Assembly (NCBI GenBank): GCA_951406725.2
Contig: OX597819.1
Location: forward strand, 45,942,001 to 46,006,000
Source: Octopus vulgaris
Taxonomy: Eukaryota
DNA: 64,000 bases
Direction of reading: 5' to 3'
Part shown: piece after piece, positions 2,810 through 61,677 of the stretch
Layout: every line of letters starts with the position of its first letter
Position numbering within the stretch: the stretch's first letter is position 1
Made by a program: the position numbers and the translations under genes
Notes under the pieces: generated by a model
Seen by the model: the letters and a program-made list of their open reading frames with translations, nothing else
Told to the model about the DNA's origin: nothing
Database searches by the model: none

Positions 2810-3178
2810 TGTTTGATCGCTTCGTGCTTATATATTGAACTCAAGGTGTACCTGTTGAAGACTATTTCACCTCGCGAGTAAATGTTATTTACTTGCTAAA
2901 CTAAAATCAGAAACCAATTGGTCCAGGAAACATATTTTTGAAGAAAAAAGAAATAGTAGTCTTTTGGCTGCTATTTCTAAAGTTTTCGGTATGTGGTCAA
3001 ACAACTTGTTGCTAAAGCCTTAATTATTGTTATAATTATATATAAATAAACTTCTTGTATAAGTTTTTACCGAATATGGTTCTTTTCCATACCGAAAACT
3101 ACTTGGTAAAATTTGTTAATTTTATTAAATTGATAATTTTACCCTATATCTGTAATATATTAACTTTATATATATATA
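2810..3178 (+). mobile_element. Non-coding Penelope-like/HHR element, distant relative of the 644-bp monomer
   Basis: HHR at 2851-2927, then TTGGCTGCTATTTCT..TTTTCGGTATGTGGTCAA..CATACCGAA, colinear with the same motif at 30476-30606; ends in (TA)n. Confidence 0.7.
2851..2927 (+). ncRNA. Type I hammerhead ribozyme motif with long stem II (degenerate core, C3U)
   Basis: CCTG-TTGAAGA-[stem II with inner 10-bp GCGAGTAAAT/ATTTACTTGC]-GAAA-CCAATTGG-TC-CAGG. Stem I is CCTG/CAGG, stem III is palindromic, cleavage triplet GUC. Confidence 0.7.
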
Positions 3179-3180
3179 AA

Positions 3181-3392
3181 GTTAATCCAAACAAGAAAAC
3201 ACAGAAAAAAAGAGAAAAAAAACACAGCAACGCGAGGACGTGGAACAATTAAAGTATTATTGACGCTCAGGAAAGAAGGGAAGGAGGGTTTAACGTTTCG
3301 AGAGGAGCTCTTCGTCGGAAACAAGGAGAAGGAAAGATCTCAAGAAGGGAAGACAGAAGAAAAAATATGTTTGCTGGTGGTGCTCAAGAGAT

Positions 3393-18461: not shown

Positions 18462-19171
18462 CAGGCTGGTCCGAAAGTCTTTTTACTCACTACATATTAT
18501 TTTTTATTGTTATAATTATCATAATTTTTTGTTTTAACACAACCCGCCCACTTGTAATGATTTGGGCCGCCATATCGTGTAAGCACCTGATAGGACTGTA
18601 TTTCTCCGAGGGCACTAACCAGAAATATTAGTTAACGATGTTAAGGGAGTGGTTTGCTCCACAGATCCAGAGGCTGAATGTTGACCTGAATTTTTGTTGG
18701 CTTCAACACGATGGTGCCCCATCCCACTATGCTATCACTGTCCGGAAATACCTAAATGAAGTTTTTCGGGATAAATGGATAGGGTTAGGATCGCATCAAC
18801 ATCTAGCACCTGTCGACTGGCCTCCTAGAAGTCCAGACCTTGTGACTTGCGATGACATTCCGTGGGTTATCCTCAAGGAGAGTGTTTCACATGAACGATA
18901 CGAGAATACCCATCAGTTGAAGCACGCCGTTCGGAGAGCCTTTGCAACAATCACCAAAGCACAGATTCAAAAAATATCACACAGGACATGGCGTCGCATC
19001 ATTTTGTGCCACGAAAATGATGGTGTTCATAAAGACCTTCTCAATGTGTGACAGCTAGAATGAAAGTGAATAAATTAAATCCAGCTCATACTTAAGAGAA
19101 CTGCATCACTTGTTTTTCTTTTGTTCTCGTTACTTTTTGGTAGAGAATAACAAGATTTTCGGACCACCCTG
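18462..19171 (+). mobile_element. Internally deleted Tc1/mariner (rosa-like) DNA transposon with TIRs and TA target duplication
   Basis: TA-CAGGCTGGTCCGAAAGTC ... GATTTTCGGACCACCCTG-TA. Transposase C-terminal half reads VMIWAAIS..LQHDGAPSH..WPPRSPDLVTCD..WVILKESV. Confidence 0.92.
18550..19051 (+). pseudogene. DDD transposase catalytic-domain remnant
   Basis: ORF 18638..19051 plus an upstream piece interrupted by a stop; N-terminal HTH domain absent. Confidence 0.88.
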
Positions 19172-28930: not shown

Positions 28931-28934
<4 letters not shown>

Positions 28935-29577
28935 TTATGTAGAAAAATGGAAACTGGGACAAGAACGTAAAACATTTAGAAGACGATACAAAAAACACGG
29001 ACGGGACATTCGAAGCCTTCAATCTTCAGTCAAGAAACGGATCATCGTAGCAATTTCGGCTGATTAATCTTGAGATCGCTCCGATCCAGCCATCCCCAAG
29101 GAAAAACTAATCTACGAGCATTAGATTCTTTGGAAGAAGGATCGAATGTATACGAAACAGGGACAGAAAAACGGACGATGCCACACGAATATAAAATACA
29201 AAAAACAATAATGGTAAAAACAGGACAAAAACAGCGGGTGTCTTACGACTAATATTTTGAAAAAATGCCTTTATCGGCAGACGAAGACAACAGATGTTCT
29301 CACGGCGCTGGTCGAAGGCCAAAAGGTTGATTTTGACCAGCGGTCACGTGACAGAAGAAAGAGAAAAGAAAGGGGGCAAAGGAAACAAAGAGAGAGAGAA
29401 AGAGGGACGAAGGCAACAAAGGGGGGGAGAAGAGAGAGAAAGAAAGAATTAAAGAGGGGAGAAGAAAGAGTGCGTGCCAAGGAGGGCTAGTGAGTGAAAG
29501 GTGAGAAAGACAGAGAAATGTGAGTGAGTGGGGGAAGAGTAGACCAAAGAATCAGAGGCAAGAAAAGAGAAAAGGAG

Positions 29578-29608
<31 letters not shown>

Positions 29609-29853
29609 AGGGGACAGATCAAAGTAGAGTGCAAAGTGTGAAAGGCAGAGAAATGTAGGAGAGAGAGACAGTGTGTAGAGTCGTACCAAATTTTATAGGA
29701 ATATGTACTTACATATAAGGCCAACGAGGGTATGGACGTCGCTATATATATTATTTTATGTAGAGAAATACAAACTGGGACAAGAACGTAAAACATTTAG
29801 AAGACGATACAATAAACACGGACGGGACATTCGAAGCCTTCAATCTTCAGGCA

Positions 29854-29855
<2 letters not shown>
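28931..29855 (-). mobile_element. Non-coding element family P1: 821-bp monomer plus about 105 bp of terminal direct repeat, in (TA)n
   Basis: TATTTTATGTAGA.AAAT..AAACTGGGACAAGAACG at 28931 and 29752; homologous along its length to 49403-50245. Confidence 0.88.
29023..29091 (-). ncRNA. Putative rearranged (non-circularly permuted) hammerhead ribozyme, copy 1
   Basis: GGCTG-GATC-GG-AGCGAT-C-TCAAGA-TTAA-TCAGCC-GAA-ATTGCT-ACGAT-GATCC-GTT-TCTTGA-CTGAAGA. Confidence 0.7.
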
Positions 29856-29940
<85 letters not shown>

Positions 29941-29949
29941 CATATATAT

Positions 29950-29989
<40 letters not shown>

Positions 29990-30258
29990 CAGTCAAGAAT
30001 GCTTATTTCTATCAAAGTTGGACTCCGGGCACGACATTGGATTTTTCACTCCCTTATGACAACCTAATAGTTCCCAATCTTATGGAACTATTTTTGTAGT
30101 GCGCATGGCAAAATTTTGGAGGGAAGATTTACGAATTCAAACGTCTATGTAGGTTTAGCTTTTGCTCACTTTCTTCAAATATTTTGATGTCGCATGGTCA
30201 GAAGGTTTGAGGTACGTAGCATTTGATAAATCTATGATAAATCTTTTTCAATGGAAAG

Positions 30259-30371
30259 CTGTGCTGAAGAAGGATGTGAAATATATATGCAATGTATATG
30301 AAATATATATCAAAAATATATATGAAATATATATTCAATATGTTTATAATCCAGAAGCATGATGTTCACAG
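30259..30371 (+). ncRNA. Type I hammerhead, unit 1 (GAAA changed to GAAG, likely impaired)
   Basis: CTGTG-CTGAAGA-A-GGAT..ATCC-A-GAAG-CATGATG-TT-CACAG. Confidence 0.7.
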
Positions 30372-30902
30372 ATAACCACCAGACTTCGTTTTCGTTATCT
30401 ATTCCTTCTGTTTTGCATATGTGAATTACAGGGTTTGTCGTGCCCGGAGTCCAACTTTGATAGAAATAAGCATTCTTGACTGCTATTTCTATTTTTTCGG
30501 TATGCGGTCAAGCAACCTGTTTGCCTGTCCCTTTTTCTTATATACAATATATATACTGAACTTTACAGAAGTTCCTGCCGGTAATCGGCTATATTTACAT
30601 ACCGAATTCTACCAGTAAATAATTGGGGTTTTTTTAAAAGCCTTTATAGAAATTATTTACTCTTATTATTATATTACTATTTGGATTTTTCACTCCCTTA
30701 TGACAACCTAATAGTTCCCAATCTTATGGAACTATTTTTGTAGTGCGCATGGCAAAATTTTGGAGGGAAGATTTACGAATTCAAACGTCTATGTAGGTTT
30801 AGCTTTTGCTCACTTTCTTCAAATATTTTGATGTCGCATGGTCAGAAGGTTTGAGGTACGTAGCATTTGATAAATCTATGATAAATCTTTTTCAATGGAA
30901 AG

Positions 30903-31015
30903 CTGTGCTGAAGAAGGATGTGAAATATATATGCAATGTATATGAAATATATATCAAAAATATATATGAAATATATATTCAATATGTTTATAATCCAGAA
31001 ACATGATGTTCACGG
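30903..31015 (+). ncRNA. Type I hammerhead, unit 2
   Basis: CTGTG-CTGAAGA-A-GGAT..ATCC-A-GAAA-CATGATG-TT-CACGG; stem I keeps pairing through a U-G wobble. Confidence 0.8.
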
Positions 31016-31546
31016 ATAACCACCAGACTTCGTTTTCGTTATCTATTCCTTCTGTTTTGCATATGTGAATTACAGGGTTTGTCGTGCCCGGAGTCCAACT
31101 TTGATAGAAATAAGCATTCTTGACTGCTATTTCTATTTTTTCGGTATGCGGTCAAGCAACCTGTTTGCCTGTCCCTTTTTCTTATATACAATATATATAC
31201 TGAACTTTACAGAAGTTCCTGCCGGTAATCGGCTATATTTACATACCGAATTCTACCAGTAAATAATTGGGGTTTTTTTAAAAGCCTTTATAGAAATTAT
31301 TTACTCTTATTATTATATTACTATTTGGATTTTTCACTCCCTTATGACAACCTAATAGTTCCCAATCTTATGGAACTATTTTTGTAGTGCGCATGGCAAA
31401 ATTTTGGAGGGAAGATTGACGAATTCAAACGTCTATGTAGGTTTAACATTTGCTCACTTTCTTCAAATATTTTGATGTCGCATGGTCAGAAGGTTTGAGG
31501 TACGTAGCATTTGATAAATCTATGATAAATCTTTTTCAATGGAAAG

Positions 31547-31659
31547 CTGTGCTGAAGAAGGATGTGAAATATATATGCAATGTATATGAAATATATATCA
31601 AAAATATATATGAAATATATATTCAATATGTTTATAATCCAGAAACATGATGTTCACAG
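31547..31659 (+). ncRNA. Type I hammerhead, unit 3
   Basis: CTGTG-CTGAAGA-A-GGAT..ATCC-A-GAAA-CATGATG-TT-CACAG; triplet GUU. Confidence 0.82.
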
Positions 31660-31950
31660 ATAACCACCAGACTTCGTTTTCGTTATCTATTCCTTCTGTT
31701 TTGCATATGTGAATTACAGGGTTTGTCGTGCCCGGAGTCCAACTTTGATAGAAATAAGCATTCTTGACTGCTATTTCTATTTTTTCGGTATGCGGTCAAG
31801 CAACCTGTTTGCCTGTCCCTTTTTCTTATATACAATATATATACTGAACTTTACAGAAGTTCCTGCCGGTAATCGGATATATTTACATACCGAATTCTAC
31901 CAGTAAATAATTGGGTTTTTTTAAAAGCCTTTATAGAAATTATTTACTCT

Positions 31951-32005
<55 letters not shown>

Positions 32006-34830: not shown

Positions 34831-35187
34831 TATACAAAATGGGACAAGAACGCAAAACATCCAGCCAGATGATACAAAAAAGGGACAACAAAACATCCAG
34901 GTAGACGATACAAAGAAAACAAGACGAGTCATTCAGAATTTTCTTTCCTCAGTCGAATTCCAGATTATCTTTGCAATTTCGGCAGGTTATACTCGAGATT
35001 GCTTCAATGTGACCAGTCCCAAGGAAAAACTAAGCTAAGAGCATTAGATTCCTTTAAAGAAAGCAGTGAATGTATACGAAAACAAGGACGGTATAAAATG
35101 GAGAATGTTACACAAATACAATTAACAGGACATATCAACAGGTGTCTTTCGACTAACGACGGATTAAATTAAGCTGGCGTGTGTGGA
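34831..35187 (-). mobile_element. Non-coding element family P2 (diverged relative of P1), truncated
   Basis: Shares GGGACAAGAACG, AGACGATACAAA, GCAATTTCGGC, CAAGGAAAAACTAA, GAGCATTAGATTC and GAATGTATACGAAA with P1. Confidence 0.8.
34946..35018 (-). ncRNA. Putative rearranged hammerhead, family P2 copy
   Basis: GACTGG-TCACATT-GAA-GCAAT-C-TCGAGT-ATAA-CCTGCC-GAA-ATTGC-AAAGAT-AATCTGG-A-ATTCGA-CTGAGGA. Stems I and III are intact with a different stem I sequence; stem II is decayed. Confidence 0.6.
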
Positions 35188-37415: not shown

Positions 37416-37419
<4 letters not shown>

Positions 37420-37890
37420 ACTAAAAATAAGGGTGTCTGAGAGACACCACCATGCCGAAATAGCAGTCAAATCCTTGACTCTAAAAACCACTTTAAATGT
37501 TCATATCGCACCATGAGATAAGACAGAGGGACAAAATAGACTAGCAAAAAGATATTACTGAATAATTCAAGATCCTGGATTTCTAGCTTTGCTTCAAATA
37601 AGCTTTGCCTTCATCAGCTGAATATATCAAATATATTCAACTGATGTGAATTATTCAGTCATATCTTTTTGCTAGTCTATTTTGTCTCTCTGTCTTATCT
37701 CATGGTGCGATATGAACATTTAAGGTGCTTTTTAGAGTCAGGGATTTGACTGCTATTTCGGTATGGTGGTGTCTCTCAGACACCCTTATTTTTAGTTGTA
37801 AAAAATTATTACCTTTGCATGGTATTTTTCCCGTGCTGCCCACTTGATAATATCGATATTTAAATATCGATATTATCCTTATTTATAAAT
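37416..37890. mobile_element. Fold-back Penelope-like/HHR element with 154-bp inverted arms
   Basis: 37416-37569 is the near-perfect reverse complement of 37647-37800; (TA)n on both sides; carries the TTGACTGCTATTTC motif. Confidence 0.88.
37566..37622 (-). ncRNA. Type I hammerhead with canonical CUGAUGA and GAAA boxes
   Basis: TTCAG-CTGATGA-A-GGC-AAA-GCTT-ATTTG-AAGC-AAA-GCT-A-GAAA-TCCAGGA-TC-TTGAA; triplet AUC. Confidence 0.8.
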
Positions 37891-42822: not shown

Positions 42823-43079
42823 AAAGTTTAGGAATAATGTTACCCTCAGAAGCAGTAACGTGTAACGACTGTTACAGCTTGAACAACCGTTATTACGAAC
42901 AGCAATACAACACAGAAATCACCAGCTTCACTAACGATGCCAACATCTGTTGTAACAGTTAAGTGAACAACAAAACTAAATCACTCGGTCTTTGTGTATG
43001 TGTGTGACCAGAGCTGATAGAAAATTTCACCGGGCTTTCATCAAAAGTTGAAGAGTGCGCACAAGGAGACGGGCAATGG

Positions 43080-43440
43080 AAGGAAGAAGTGTCTCTTGTT
43101 GCAATCATGAAAATAACACAAGACCAAAGGGATAGACTGACTGAGTTTAAGGAAGAGCAGAAAGCGCAGCACGTACAGGGACACGAACATGAAGATAAAC
43201 AGTTGAAAACGTATAATGAAATAATGGAGACTAGAACAGTTTTGTGCTGCCGAGTGTTCGGAAATGGTGGACACGTACCGAATTTTGAAAATGGCCAAAC
43301 CTCCAGAGTTGCTCTTTCGGGAATGTGTGTGCCTGCAGGTGGTCAAGAGACAATTTTGGATACCGGACGGAATCATGAGGATCCAGTATTTGGCCCCGAT
43401 CCAGCGAAGTACAAGACTGCGGTAGACTTCCCATTGCACA
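43080..43440 (+). mobile_element. Possible RTE-clade LINE C-terminal remnant
   Basis: GGHVPNFENGQTSRVALSG..GGQ resembles W.GHV.RM...R.P...L.G...GGQ. Confidence 0.4.
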
Positions 43441-44594
43441 AATATGATGAAAGGTAAAGTCTATCCTGGTGACACTTGAACACAGAACGTAATGTCATAA
43501 GAAATGCCACTAAGCAGTTTGTGTCACTCGGTAATGATTCTGGAAGTTCCCCCCCTTAGGGAATGAAAATATTGCCAACAAAATATCCTTCCAAACTGCT
43601 CACAATGTTTCACTTACTGGCGATGAGTGGACGAAAACCTAGGTGACACATGACATAGAGCCAGCCACTGGAGTGCCGCCTGCCCACAACAAAAAAGCAG
43701 AACAAACGTTGAGTCGTTTTGCTGCTAACATCGCAGTCATAATAGTGACAGAAACAGTACTAATAGCAATGCCAAAGATCAGAGCATATACCGAAGGATT
43801 GTGAATATTGTAAGAACAAAGGACCCATTTCGGAGCCGAATGGTGTTGTGCGTTCTAGAAAAAAATACCTAATGTCACATTGCTCCAGTTCACTCAATTG
43901 AAAAATGGTTGCATCTGCCTTCGAGTGGTGCATCTCAGAAGGTTACCAAGGAAAAAGGTTTTTCGAATGCAAGATGCCGACAACCTTTTGTGGCAACACC
44001 GACTTAGATAATGATCGACAAACTTTTAAGATTTAATCTGTTATAAATTTATGCGAGTAAGTTTGACACACCACTGAGCGAGGAGCCATCTTTTTAGGTT
44101 ATCATATTCGGTTTCAAAAATGTTGATGTTATATCTTCTACTTTCTGTGTGTCTACATATGTGTGTGTATGATTGGCTTTGTATTTATGCTCCTAGTGCT
44201 TGGATGCGTCAGATTGTTTAAGCATATGTCTGTGTCTATGTATCTATATGTCAATGTGTGTCTGATTAGGTTTGTATGTGCTTTCTTTTTGTATGTTTTT
44301 ATTCAGAAGAGTCTCAAAATCAATTCGTTGGCTATTGTATTTTTTCTTTTCTATTCTTTTAAATGTTTTTCTCTTTGTTCTTTATTATATAATTTTTCAG
44401 TGAATGTAAATATTTTTGAGTGAATGTAGGGTCAGGACAGTGCAAACAAATTTAATTTATATACACCCGTACTCATAGACATATAATTTATAAACACCCG
44501 TACACAGACACTCACGCATGTATGGATATATGTTTATGTTTACATGTATGTGTGTGCGTGTTTATGAGCACGTTTATTTATATATGCGCATATA

Positions 44595-49338: not shown

Positions 49339-49402
<64 letters not shown>

Positions 49403-49403
<1 letters not shown>

Positions 49404-50245
49404 GATATGTAGAAAAATACAAACTGAGACAAGAACGCATAAAAACTTAGAAGACGATACAACAAACACAGACAGGACATTCGAAGCCCTCAGTCTTCAG
49501 TCAAGAACCGGATCATCGTAGTAATTTCGGCTGATTAATCTTGAGATTACTAGAACCGGCCAGCCCTCCAGGAAAAACTAAGCAACGAGCATTAGAAAAA
49601 CTAAGCTAGGAGTGTAGATTTCCTGGAAGAAGGATCGAATGCATACGAACACAGGGACAGCAAAACGGACGGTGCCACACGAATATAAAAAACAAAAAAC
49701 AATAATGAAATACAAAAACGTGAAATACAAAAGCAATAATGGTAAAAACAGCAAGTGTCTTACGACTAATAACAGTGTAAACAGGTCTGGCTGGCGTATT
49801 TTGGAAAAATTGCCTTAGCGGCGAATTGCCTTAGCGGCGAACGAGGACAACGATGTTTTCACGGCGCTGGTCAGAGGCCGAAAGGCAGATTTTGGCCAGC
49901 AGTCACGTGACAGAGAAGAGAGAAAAGAAAAGAAAGGAAAGAAAGGGAGGCAAAGGAAGGAAGAGAGAGAGAAGAGGGACGAAAGCAACAAGGGGGGAGA
50001 ATAGAGAGAAAGAAGGAATTAGAGAGGGTAGAAGGGATGGGTGTCAAAGATTGACCTGTGAGTGCAAAGGAAGACAAAGAAATGGAAGGGTAGGGGAAGA
50101 GTAGACCAACGAATCAGAGGCAAGAGAAGAGAAAAGGAGGATGAGTAGACAAACAGTGTAGAGTCGTACCAAATTTACAAGAATATGTGCTCACATAAGT
50201 GTTAAGGAGGGTACGTGACGCCAGGAATATATATTATGATATGTA
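49403..50245 (-). mobile_element. Family P1 copy 2: monomer of about 834 bp plus 9-bp redundancy
   Basis: Colinear with 28931-29751; TGATATGTA at 49403 and 50237. Confidence 0.85.
49494..49565 (-). ncRNA. Putative rearranged hammerhead, copy 2
   Basis: GGCTGG-CCGGTTC-TAGTAAT-C-TCAAGA-TTAA-TCAGCC-GAA-ATTACTA-CGAT-GATCCGG-T-TCTTGA-CTGAAGA. Confidence 0.72.
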
Positions 50246-51181: not shown

Positions 51182-51185
<4 letters not shown>

Positions 51186-51389
51186 ATCCAACATGAAAAC
51201 ACAAAGAGAAAACACAACAACGCGAGGACGTGGAACAAATATAGTATTATTGGACGCTCGAGAAGGATGGGAAGAAGGAGGGTTTTACGTTTCGAGCGGA
51301 GCTCTTCGTCAGAAACATAGGAAAAGGAAAGATCCAGAGAAGGGAAGACGGAGGAAAAAAATCGCCAACGGTACACACGCGGTCACATT

Positions 51390-52254: not shown

Positions 52255-52994
52255 TTTTACTTTAGGCACAAAGCCCAGAATTTTGAAGGAGTGTACCAGT
52301 TGATTGGATCGACCCCAGTACACAACTAGTACTTAATTTATCGACCCCGAAAGGATAAAAGGCAAATTCGACCTCGGCGGAATTTGAACTCAGAACGTAA
52401 CAGCAAAGGAAATACCGCTAAGCATTTCGCCTGGCGTGCTAACGTTTCTGCAAGCTCGCCTAAAACTTACTCTATCGATTTCTTTCCTTGAACTGCTATT
52501 TAATCGACCCCGAAAGGATGAAAGGCAAAGTCAACCTCGGCGGAATTTGAACTCAGCACGTTAAGACAGACGAAATACCTATTTCTTTACTACCCACAAG
52601 GGGTTAAACACAGAGGGGACAAACAAGGACAGACAAAGGGATTAAGTCGATTACATCGACCCCAGTGCTTAACTGGTGCTTAATTTATCGACCCCGAAAG
52701 GATAAAAGCAAAGTCGACCACGGCGGAATTTGAACTCGGCACGTAAAGACAGACGAAATACCTATTACTTTACTACCCACAAGGGGCTAAACACAGAGAG
52801 GACAAACAAGGACAGACAGACGGATTAAGTCGTTTATATCGACCTCAGTGCGTAACTGGTACTTATTTAATAGCCCCCGAAAGGATGAAAGGCAAAGTCG
52901 ACCTCGGCGGAATTTGAACTCAGAACGTAACGGCAGACGAAACACCACAAAGCATTTCGCCCGGCGTACTTACGTTGCTGACAGCTCGCCGCCT
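52255..52994 (-). mobile_element. Family B SINE multimer plus an adjacent copy
   Basis: One head at 52994 followed by headless body units (period 183), and a separate copy at 52255-52460. Confidence 0.88.
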
Positions 52995-60744: not shown

Positions 60745-61262
60745 GGTCCACGTGACATTGCTGTGTTTACTTCGCAAATTGTGAAATTTGTGCTTTTGTA
60801 ATCACATGTTTTCTGCAATTTTTGTCATGGTCAGAAACAAACAACGAATATGAAATTTTGCATTAACGTTGGGAGGTCTGATACAGAGACACTGAGCATG
60901 CTTCGCCAAGCTTGCAGTGGCGAGGCAATGGGTCGTACGCAATGCTTCAAATGACACGGGGACTTCAAAAGCGGAAGAGCGTCTCTGGAAGACATGCCAC
61001 AAGCGTCAGCCCGGGAAATGTGGTATTGTACATCGAGAACTCGTCTCCCAGGGCCAGATCGTCCAATCGGGAATTCTACTGAGACATTTTGAAGCGTTTG
61101 GTGGAGAACATTCGGCGAAAGCCACCGAGTCTGTGGAATGCGAAGAATTGGATTTTTCACGACGACAATGCTCTCTTGTCACCGAGATCTCTTCGCTCGT
61201 GAGTTTCTCGCCAAAAACAACATGGTATCAATCCTGCACCCGGCCTATTGGCCAGATTTTAC
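60745..61262 (+). mobile_element. Mariner transposase remnant
   Basis: QRTNMKFCINVGRSDTETLSMLRQA..EAMGRTQCFK, GIVHRELVSQGQ, WIFHDDNA; frameshifted. Confidence 0.85.
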
Positions 61263-61398
61263 ACAAGCATGCATGTATACATGTATGTATATATGTATGC
61301 ATGCATGCATGTAAATGTATGTATGTATATATATATGTATATATATGAAATGTATCTTTATAAATATATATATATATATATATATGTATGTATATATT

Positions 61399-61457: not shown

Positions 61458-61498
<41 letters not shown>

Positions 61499-61502
<4 letters not shown>

Positions 61503-61677
61503 ATCCAAACAAGAAAACACAAAAAAAACACAACAACGCGAGGACGTGGAACAAATATAGTATTATTGGACGCTCAGGAAAGAAGGGAAGAAGGAGGGCT
61601 TAACGTTTCGAGCGGAGCTCTTCGTCGGAAACATAGGAGGAAGGATCCAGAGAAGGGAAGACAGAGGAAAAAAAATC
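61499..61677 (-). mobile_element. HHR element family H1, copy 3 (HHR 61598-61632)
   Basis: GTTT-CCGACGA-A-GAGC-TCC-GCTC-GAAACGTT-AAGC. Confidence 0.85.

What the first reader, a model, noticed from the sequence alone, without database searches (positions are those of the whole stretch)
29986..31956. 3 x 644-bp non-coding tandem array with one hammerhead per unit (retrozyme-like)
Seen: three nearly identical 644-bp units, each with a type I HHR (stem I CUGUG/CACAG, CUGAAGA, GAAA, triplet GUU), preceded by a 51-bp inverted piece and bounded by (TA)n; no credible ORF. Established: animal non-LTR retrozymes are tandem monomers with type I HHRs whose transcripts self-cleave and circularise, and inverted 5' segments are characteristic of Penelope-like insertions. 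Inference: a young non-autonomous element copied from a circular or multimeric RNA of about 644 nt by a Penelope-type RT. The monomer is longer than the few-hundred-nt animal retrozymes I know of.
Basis: partly seen in the sequence, partly recalled or inferred. Interest (0 to 1): 0.82.

Follow-up and report, generated by a model that had tools for sequence, protein, structure and literature searches.

The report
Hammerhead tandem retroelement in TA repeat
Almost three copies of a 644-base non-coding unit, two with an intact hammerhead (self-cutting RNA) motif, sit inside a TA microsatellite and belong to a high-copy family; it is likely a 'retrozyme' copied by Penelope-type jumping genes, and its fixed end beside a conserved RNA fold would give a testable handle on how such elements move.

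Summary
Real and young: 30037-31956 is 2.98 units of 644 bp (7 private changes in 1,920 bp), preceded by a 48-51-bp inverted piece, inside (TA)n. The type I hammerhead is far beyond chance (1 of 20,000 shuffles). Unit 1's core is mutated (GAAG), so two of three are intact. It has A.A at the base of an 81-nt helix II and a 9-nt palindromic helix III predicted to work as a dimer; a distant element at 37416-37887 has the same design. Public runs show a high-copy family under 5 organism labels. Other copies leave the unit at the same base as this array, 303 nt downstream of the cleavage site, just after an RNA fold kept in a 68%-identical relative. Best reading: a non-LTR retrozyme (non-autonomous Penelope derivative), likely reverse-transcribed from an internal start, as shown for a lizard Penelope protein. 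Cleavage, circles and the partner element are not shown; 644 bp is within the published range. The scan had no look-alike of this sequence; similar Penelope-type arrays were noted in other genomes. Host probably an octopus (recalled, untested). New variant of a known kind; interest 0.5.

The parts
29856..29988 (.). Left (TA)n microsatellite (target side)
29986..30036 (-). Inverted 5' piece = unit positions 450 to 400; first 3 bases (ATA) shared with (TA)n; no shared bases at the inner junction
30037..30680 (+). Unit 1 (644 bp); hammerhead 30259-30371 with private core change GAAA to GAAG at 30357 (predicted inactive)
30681..31324 (+). Unit 2 (644 bp)
30903..31015 (+). Hammerhead of unit 2: intact core, one U.G wobble in helix I, predicted cut after 31010
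31011..31654 (+). The only 644-nt cut-site-to-cut-site monomer this locus could release; folds strongly as a circle (z -7.1, 0 of 40 shuffles)
31103..31305 (+). Structured 3' domain (unit positions 423-625: hairpin, multiloop, terminal hairpin), conserved in the old relative; candidate protein-binding / RT-start signal (inferred)
31325..31956 (+). Unit 3, ends at unit position 633 against (TA)n = 3' end of the insertion
31547..31659 (+). Hammerhead of unit 3: helix I CUGUG/CACAG, CUGAAGA, A.A, 81-nt helix II, GAAA, 9-nt palindrome ACAUGAUGU, predicted cut after 31654 (GUU)
31954..32000 (.). Right (TA)n microsatellite
2949..3150 (+). Old 5'-truncated relative (68% identical over 186 columns to unit positions 426-602) with the same 3' fold and an AT-rich end
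37416..37887 (.). Distant relative in (TA)n: fold-back palindrome plus 3' tail with terminal hairpin; hammerhead of the same variant design on the minus strand at 37617

Best explanation
This is a young insertion of a high-copy, non-coding hammerhead repeat, likely a non-LTR retrozyme derived from and mobilised by Penelope-like elements (PLEs). Shown: tandem anatomy, hammerhead motif, (TA)n site, inverted 5' piece, many related copies, a shared 3' end and a conserved 3' fold. Inferred mechanism: (1) tandem arrays are transcribed on the + strand; (2) the hammerhead cuts slowly and mainly as a dimer of neighbouring units, since helix III is a 9-nt palindrome, so long uncut RNAs persist and some 644-nt monomers may circularise, with the ribozyme masked in the circle; (3) a PLE RT-endonuclease supplied in trans binds the structured 3' domain, nicks (TA)n and starts reverse transcription internally at unit position ~633, 303 nt downstream of the cut site; (4) it copied about three turns here, from an uncut multimer (I put 55%) or a circle (45%); (5) the other nicked strand primed at position 450 through a 3-nt overlap and gave the 48-bp inversion. 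No step of (1)-(5) was tested here.
For: Hammerhead not chance. Family-wide: 19 of 24 listed runs hold half or more of the words, under 5 organism labels; 1,172 and 409 contigs laid in two genome-sized runs. Core conserved: 30357 reads A at full depth in 4 of 4 runs. Contig pieces of a sister subfamily show CUGAUGA, a shorter helix II and a helix I changed on both strands (UUUACG / CGUAAA); the two halves come from separate contigs, so linkage is inferred. The same A.A plus palindrome design occurs at 37617; the descriptor has 0 hits in 500 shuffled windows but was written after seeing both. Helix III: +2.1 kcal/mol as a monomer hairpin, -6.4 as a dimer; the two-unit dimer fold is 6.3 kcal/mol below two monomer folds. 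Fixed 3' end: 4 contigs of run X6 leave the unit at 30669 (= position 633) into unlike AT-rich flanks (agreement 0.62), and one X3 contig also stops matching there. The old relative keeps 26 of 26 pairs in four hand-matched helices (23 same, 1 one-sided, 2 double changes) and has a similar short unpaired end. All three units carry the same minority letters (e.g. 30076) and only private changes, as expected from one template. Literature: PLE insertions show tandems, inverted 5' pieces and (TA)n bias; a purified PLE protein cuts AT-rich DNA on both strands and starts RT internally, without needing ribozyme cleavage; vertebrate retrozymes match PLE pLTRs.
Against: No autonomous partner was found: no RT or GIY-YIG family among the 102 window frames scanned, and no whole genome is held. 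The active hammerhead is not the favoured fold in long contexts: helix I probability 0.01 in the circle, 0.00-0.40 for unit 3 with 70 nt or more of upstream sequence, and the dimer fold is still 5.2 kcal/mol above the free ensemble. 8 of 9 Xenopus retrozyme dimers tested in vitro did not cleave. RNA evidence is weak: all RNA labels of the good holders are guesses, 4 guessed-RNA rows hold next to nothing, and the contig crossing both the tandem junction and the cut site fits a circle, an uncut multimer or DNA alike. No target-site duplication can be read in (TA)n. The array is 11 nt short of three whole turns, which random stopping on a circle would give only about 2% of the time.
Confidence: 0.7

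Rival explanations
1. The unit is simply the pseudo-LTR of an autonomous PLE, and this array is a by-product of that element's transposition with no life cycle of its own.
For: The hammerhead has PLE-type traits: 5-bp helix I, extra base 5' of helix II, large helix II, palindromic helix III (Cervera 2014). In run X6 summed depth is 4.4-fold higher over the last ~215 nt, as for 5'-truncated copies; this is a weak hint, and the ratio is only 1.3 in X3.
Against: Three head-to-tail units without any ORF. A guessed-RNA contig crosses the 644-to-1 junction at full depth. No common upstream sequence appears among the 24 loose ends shown (128 more not shown).
Confidence: 0.15
2. One monomer was inserted and then amplified locally by unequal crossing-over or slippage, as a minisatellite.
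For: Li et al. 2026 propose local amplification from PLE termini. Units 1 and 2 are closer to each other (2 differences) than to unit 3 (6). The length is nearly a whole number of units.
Against: Units 1 and 2 share no derived change: the unit-3 letters are not listed as family variants. The 1/1/5 split of private changes is compatible with equal ages (p=0.23). The junction bases 634-644 are absent at both ends of the array yet present between units, and the same junction occurs in another individual's contig.
Confidence: 0.1
3. Assembly artefact: a single unit written three times.
For: No listed contig spans the array; long reads were not examined.
Against: Each unit has its own changes, and the tandem junction is seen in an independent run.
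Confidence: 0.03

Closest known systems
Animal non-LTR retrozymes (Cervera & de la Pena 2020, PMC7229834; Li, Clavereau & Pollet 2026, 10.64898/2026.07.22.740005)
   Same: Non-coding tandem units, one type I hammerhead per unit, GC 32%, strongly self-paired monomer, length within 51-972 bp, few units per array, dispersed copies.
   Different: Helix II is 81 nt with an A.A pair at its base instead of about 4 bp. The ribozyme is predicted masked in the circle, whereas most metazoan retrozyme circles are predicted to leave it free (some mussel ones excepted). Inverted 5' piece and a fixed end away from the cut site. Cleavage and circles untested.
Pseudo-LTRs of endonuclease-bearing PLEs (Penelope/Poseidon, Neptune; Cervera 2014 PMC4209133; Craig 2021 PMC8557442; Frangieh 2024 PMC11167929)
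   Same: Tandem plus inverted 5' piece, AT-rich/(TA)n target, fixed end downstream of the hammerhead, short helix I, extra base before helix II, palindromic dimer-type helix III.
   Different: No RT-GIY-YIG ORF. The end lies 303 nt past the cut site (about 85-92 nt in the lizard element, from its published coordinates). No AC-rich stem-loop at the inferred start.
Axolotl HHR_Amex2 retrozyme (PMC7229834)
   Same: Mismatch at the base of helix II and dimer-dependent cleavage (there shown, here predicted).
   Different: U.U there, A.A here; 350-bp unit; short helix II.
Non-autonomous Chlamys PLEs such as MRC1 (Craig 2021)
   Same: Non-coding head-to-tail multimers mobilised by PLEs into microsatellites.
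   Different: Green algal; most Chlamys elements lack canonical hammerheads.

Membership tests
Non-LTR retrozyme | Tandem repeats, each with a type I hammerhead; at least two consecutive complete motifs (Li 2026) | tested here: met
   Units 2 and 3 complete, unit 1 core mutated
Non-LTR retrozyme | No protein coding | tested here: met
   6 frames of 52-80 aa, no Pfam family
Non-LTR retrozyme | GC below 45% and highly self-paired monomer | tested here: met
   GC 0.32; z -7.1 plus strand vs -3.0 minus strand, 67% paired
Non-LTR retrozyme | Dispersed multi-copy family | tested here: met
   1,172 and 409 variant contigs, loose ends into unlike flanks; copy number not measurable
Non-LTR retrozyme | Transcribed | tested here: inconclusive
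   7 guessed-RNA rows in 3 studies hold 0.51-0.66 of the words, 4 hold 0.00-0.03; RNA is a guess
Non-LTR retrozyme | Self-cleavage and circular monomer RNA | not testable with these tools
   Folding predicts dimer dependence and masking; contigs cannot show ends or circles
Autonomous PLE | RT plus GIY-YIG ORF between pLTRs | tested here: not met
   None at the locus or among 102 scanned frames of the window
PLE-type insertion | Tandem with inverted 5'-truncated piece, microsatellite/AT-rich target, fixed 3' end | tested here: met
PLE-type insertion | Sequence homology to the pLTR of an identified autonomous PLE | tested here: inconclusive
   No genome held; four short motifs gave no match within the octopus Naiad entries shown from Craig's supplement (line breaks can hide matches)
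Rfam hammerhead families | Score at gathering threshold | tested here: not met
   0 hits; none among 68 rows at E<=10; the long helix II is the likely cause
Plant LTR retrozyme | LTRs with type III hammerhead, PBS/PPT, 4-bp TSD | tested here: not met
   Type I topology, pure tandem

The most novel reading that the evidence does not exclude
A cephalopod superfamily of retrozymes with its own dimer-type hammerhead (A.A-based long helix II, 9-nt palindromic helix III) whose conserved 3' RNA fold is the cis signal that recruits a Penelope RT-endonuclease and fixes an internal start about 240-300 nt downstream of the cut site. This would be anatomical evidence that animal retrozymes are copied by internal, structure-guided priming on an abundant circular RNA, and a ready substrate for the existing in vitro PLE assay.
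Probability: 0.3. Interest if true: 0.72.

Novelty: new variant of a known kind. Interest (0 to 1): 0.5.

Why it matters
Who mobilises animal retrozymes, and from what template, is still open: Cervera 2020 names PLEs as candidates, and Li 2026 gives phylogenetic support but says the mechanism remains to be elucidated. This family shows the integration marks directly (fixed internal end beside a conserved fold, (TA)n target, inversion) and so predicts a specific RT start site that can be tested. It also adds a hammerhead variant that Rfam misses. I found no report of a cephalopod retrozyme or hammerhead in the library; unread supplements (Cervera 2020, Li 2026) and Lunse 2016, which is not held, could list one.

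Tried and rejected
Whole-genome search: no genome held. Rfam: nothing. Metagenome contigs: 0 matches to a hammerhead-flank pattern; 1 match to a 3'-domain pattern (L001), rejected as chance because BLAST finds no homology. Viral contigs: 0. Host identification: a literature search for a SINE-like word found 0 papers, and the Atlas search with ORF 43008-43454 gave only scores of 0.78 or less; 'octopus' therefore rests on my recall of the look of its SINEs and microsatellites. One search's clean hammerhead fold depends on the cut-out chosen; longer contexts weaken it. One search folded a monomer one base out of register (redone). In one search one hairpin was paired at a wrong coordinate and three apparent double changes were a register shift; both are corrected. 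The Fisher test for higher identity in helices (44 of 52 vs 97 of 155, p=0.003) is biased because the helices were picked by hand. RNAalifold's 4 double changes depend on a doubtful alignment and are not used. Of 8 covariance-model hits, 4 are by construction, 1 is the distant relative (E 0.012, rough) and 3 were not pursued or showed no homology. The 37617 hammerhead does not fold as a monomer on its own. Summed contig depth is not used as a copy number.

Full report
Observation. The window is AT-rich, microsatellite-laden animal DNA. Three head-to-tail units lie at 30037-30680, 30681-31324 and 31325-31956. Units 1 and 2 differ at 2 of 644 bases; unit 3 has 4 more substitutions and a 1-nt deletion. 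The array is 1,920 bp and ends at unit position 633, 11 positions short of three whole turns. Upstream is an exact inverted copy of positions 400-450 (29986-30036), whose first three bases are shared with the left (TA)n. Seven private changes in 1,920 bp (0.36%) make it young, and their 1/1/5 split does not reject equal ages (p=0.23). Six frames of unit 1 have no Pfam family. No RT or GIY-YIG family appeared in the 102 window frames scanned (stop-to-stop, mostly 75 aa or more and not low-complexity).

The hammerhead. Unit 3 reads helix I CUGUG/CACAG, core CUGAAGA, an unpaired A, an 81-nt helix II (4 bp, a 3x3 internal loop, then a long AU-rich hairpin), another A, GAAA, and ACAUGAUGU followed by U, so the triplet is GUU. 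A strict descriptor matched 1 of 20,000 shuffled units and 0 of 60 shuffled windows. Rfam does not detect it. Unit 1 has GAAG; all contig depth in 4 of 4 runs reads A at that base, so the change is private. Helix III is an odd palindrome: +2.1 kcal/mol as a hairpin, -6.4 as an 8-bp dimer. Across units 2 and 3 the dimer ribozyme is 6.3 kcal/mol better than two monomers but 5.2 above the free ensemble. In the circular monomer helix I has probability 0.01, because positions 207-218 pair with the core; in linear contexts the value depends strongly on the flanks. I therefore predict slow, dimer-dependent cutting. Selection on the motif is indicated by (a) contig pieces of a sister subfamily with CUGAUGA, a shorter helix II and a helix I changed on both strands (two separate pieces, linkage inferred), and (b) a distant element at 37416-37887 whose minus strand has the same A.A, a 3x3 loop after a short helix II, and a different 9-nt palindrome. 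That descriptor was written after seeing both, with helix II relaxed to 3 bp; it had 0 hits in 500 shuffled windows.

The family. No genome is held. Of 24 runs listed, 20 hold the unit or part of it and 19 hold half or more, under 5 organism labels. I laid 4 of the 24 on 29989-30700 at 85% likeness: 1,172 and 409 contigs in the two large runs, 20 and 9 in two guessed-RNA runs. Summed depth in X6 is 1,077-25,943 over the unit against 3-10 over the inverted piece; the tool warns this is no copy number, so I read it only as 'many copies'. Four X6 contigs leave the unit at 30669, which is position 633, into unlike AT-rich sequence, and an X3 contig stops matching there too. Letters at which all three units differ from the majority (e.g. 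30076, other letter at 87% and 73% of depth) show one source lineage, and the unit-2 and unit-3 private letters are not among the listed variants (one row not shown). One guessed-RNA contig (451 nt) crosses both the cut site and the 644-to-1 junction; a circle, an uncut multimer or DNA would all give this. Seven guessed-RNA rows in 3 studies hold 0.51-0.66 of the words and four hold 0.00-0.03, so expression is suggested, not shown.

The 3' domain. The monomer folds far better than shuffles (z -7.1; -6.6 without helix II; minus strand -3.0). A 68%-identical fragment at 2949-3150 folds on its own into the same frame as positions 423-625 (z -7.2 and -5.8). Four hand-matched helices keep 26 of 26 pairs with 2 double changes, and in both a terminal hairpin is followed by a few unpaired bases and AT-rich DNA. 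Two sequences are thin evidence of covariation. The distant element also ends in a hairpin, CTTATT and (TA)n, about 240 nt past its cut site, and shares a short motif with positions 440-468.

Mechanism. Frangieh et al. 2024 (PMC11167929, parts 1-3 of 4 read) showed that a lizard PLE protein nicks AT-rich DNA on both strands, starts RT internally at a stem-loop downstream of the hammerhead, and does not need cleavage. That accounts for a fixed end 303 nt past the cut site, the (TA)n site and the inverted piece, which I read as priming from the second nick at position 450 over a 3-nt overlap (inference). Craig et al. 2021 (PMC8557442, passages and supplement searches) describe tandem-plus-inverted insertions with microsatellite bias. 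Template: a circle explains identical units; an uncut multimer better explains the near-whole-number length and the masked ribozyme. I lean 55:45 to the multimer. Unexplained: both inner breakpoints (positions 1 and 400) lie at the ends of one predicted helix, 401-418 with 1-24.

Comparison. It meets the sequence criteria for a non-LTR retrozyme (Li et al. 2026, parts 1-3 of 5 read; Cervera 2020, passages and sections 14 and 17), and 644 bp is inside their ranges. The ribozyme resembles PLE-type motifs (Cervera 2014, parts 1-2 of 4; Weinberg 2019, passages) more than the canonical retrozyme motif. It is not an autonomous PLE. In Li's tests 8 of 9 dimers did not cleave, so activity must not be assumed. 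The host is probably an octopus (recalled, no call shows it). If so, recently active PLE families exist in O. vulgaris (PMC13282606, part 1 of 3 and supplement search), and that supplement does not mention hammerheads or retrozymes. PMC8490949 and PMC11662667 (passages only) added nothing decisive. The scan's own index had no look-alike of this sequence and six notes on kindred arrays in other genomes, which I did not test.

Verdict. A real, young retrozyme-type insertion with Penelope marks and an unusual dimer-type hammerhead: new variant of a known kind, confidence 0.7, interest 0.5.

Noticed in passing
window 37416-37887: Fold-back palindrome centred near 37631 inside (TA)n. One arm holds the variant hammerhead; the other lacks exactly 42 nt (helices II and III and the cut site), as if RT skipped the folded junction.
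   Followed up: partly
window 2949-3150: Old relative of the unit's 3' domain, lying just after a decayed LINE-like stretch (LINE likeness recalled, not tested).
   Followed up: yes
window 28931-29856 (-), also 49392-49911 and 34890-35089: A second (TA)n-bounded family directly left of the array: partial tandem (105-114-bp repeat, spacing 821) with a degenerate hammerhead-like core; probably another non-autonomous PLE.
   Followed up: partly
window 51182-51354, 61498-61676, 3180-3368 (-): Third family of PLE-like 3' fragments ending at (TA)n, with a minimal hammerhead core at 51312.
   Followed up: partly
window 18632-19051 (+), 60896-61348 (+): Transposase-like remnants; weak DDE_3 match for the first (E 0.029, below cut-off); Tc1/mariner likeness is recalled.
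   Followed up: no
window 52498-52946: 2.4 tandem copies of a 183-bp SINE-like unit with many dispersed relatives in the window.
   Followed up: no
window 43008-43457 (+): 149-aa open frame of normal complexity with no Pfam family and no Atlas hit above 0.78.
   Followed up: partly
runs X3, X6 on window 30235-30335: Subfamilies with different helix II lengths and inserts, and an alternative segment at about 30430-30476 that appears to keep the 423-457 hairpin.
   Followed up: partly
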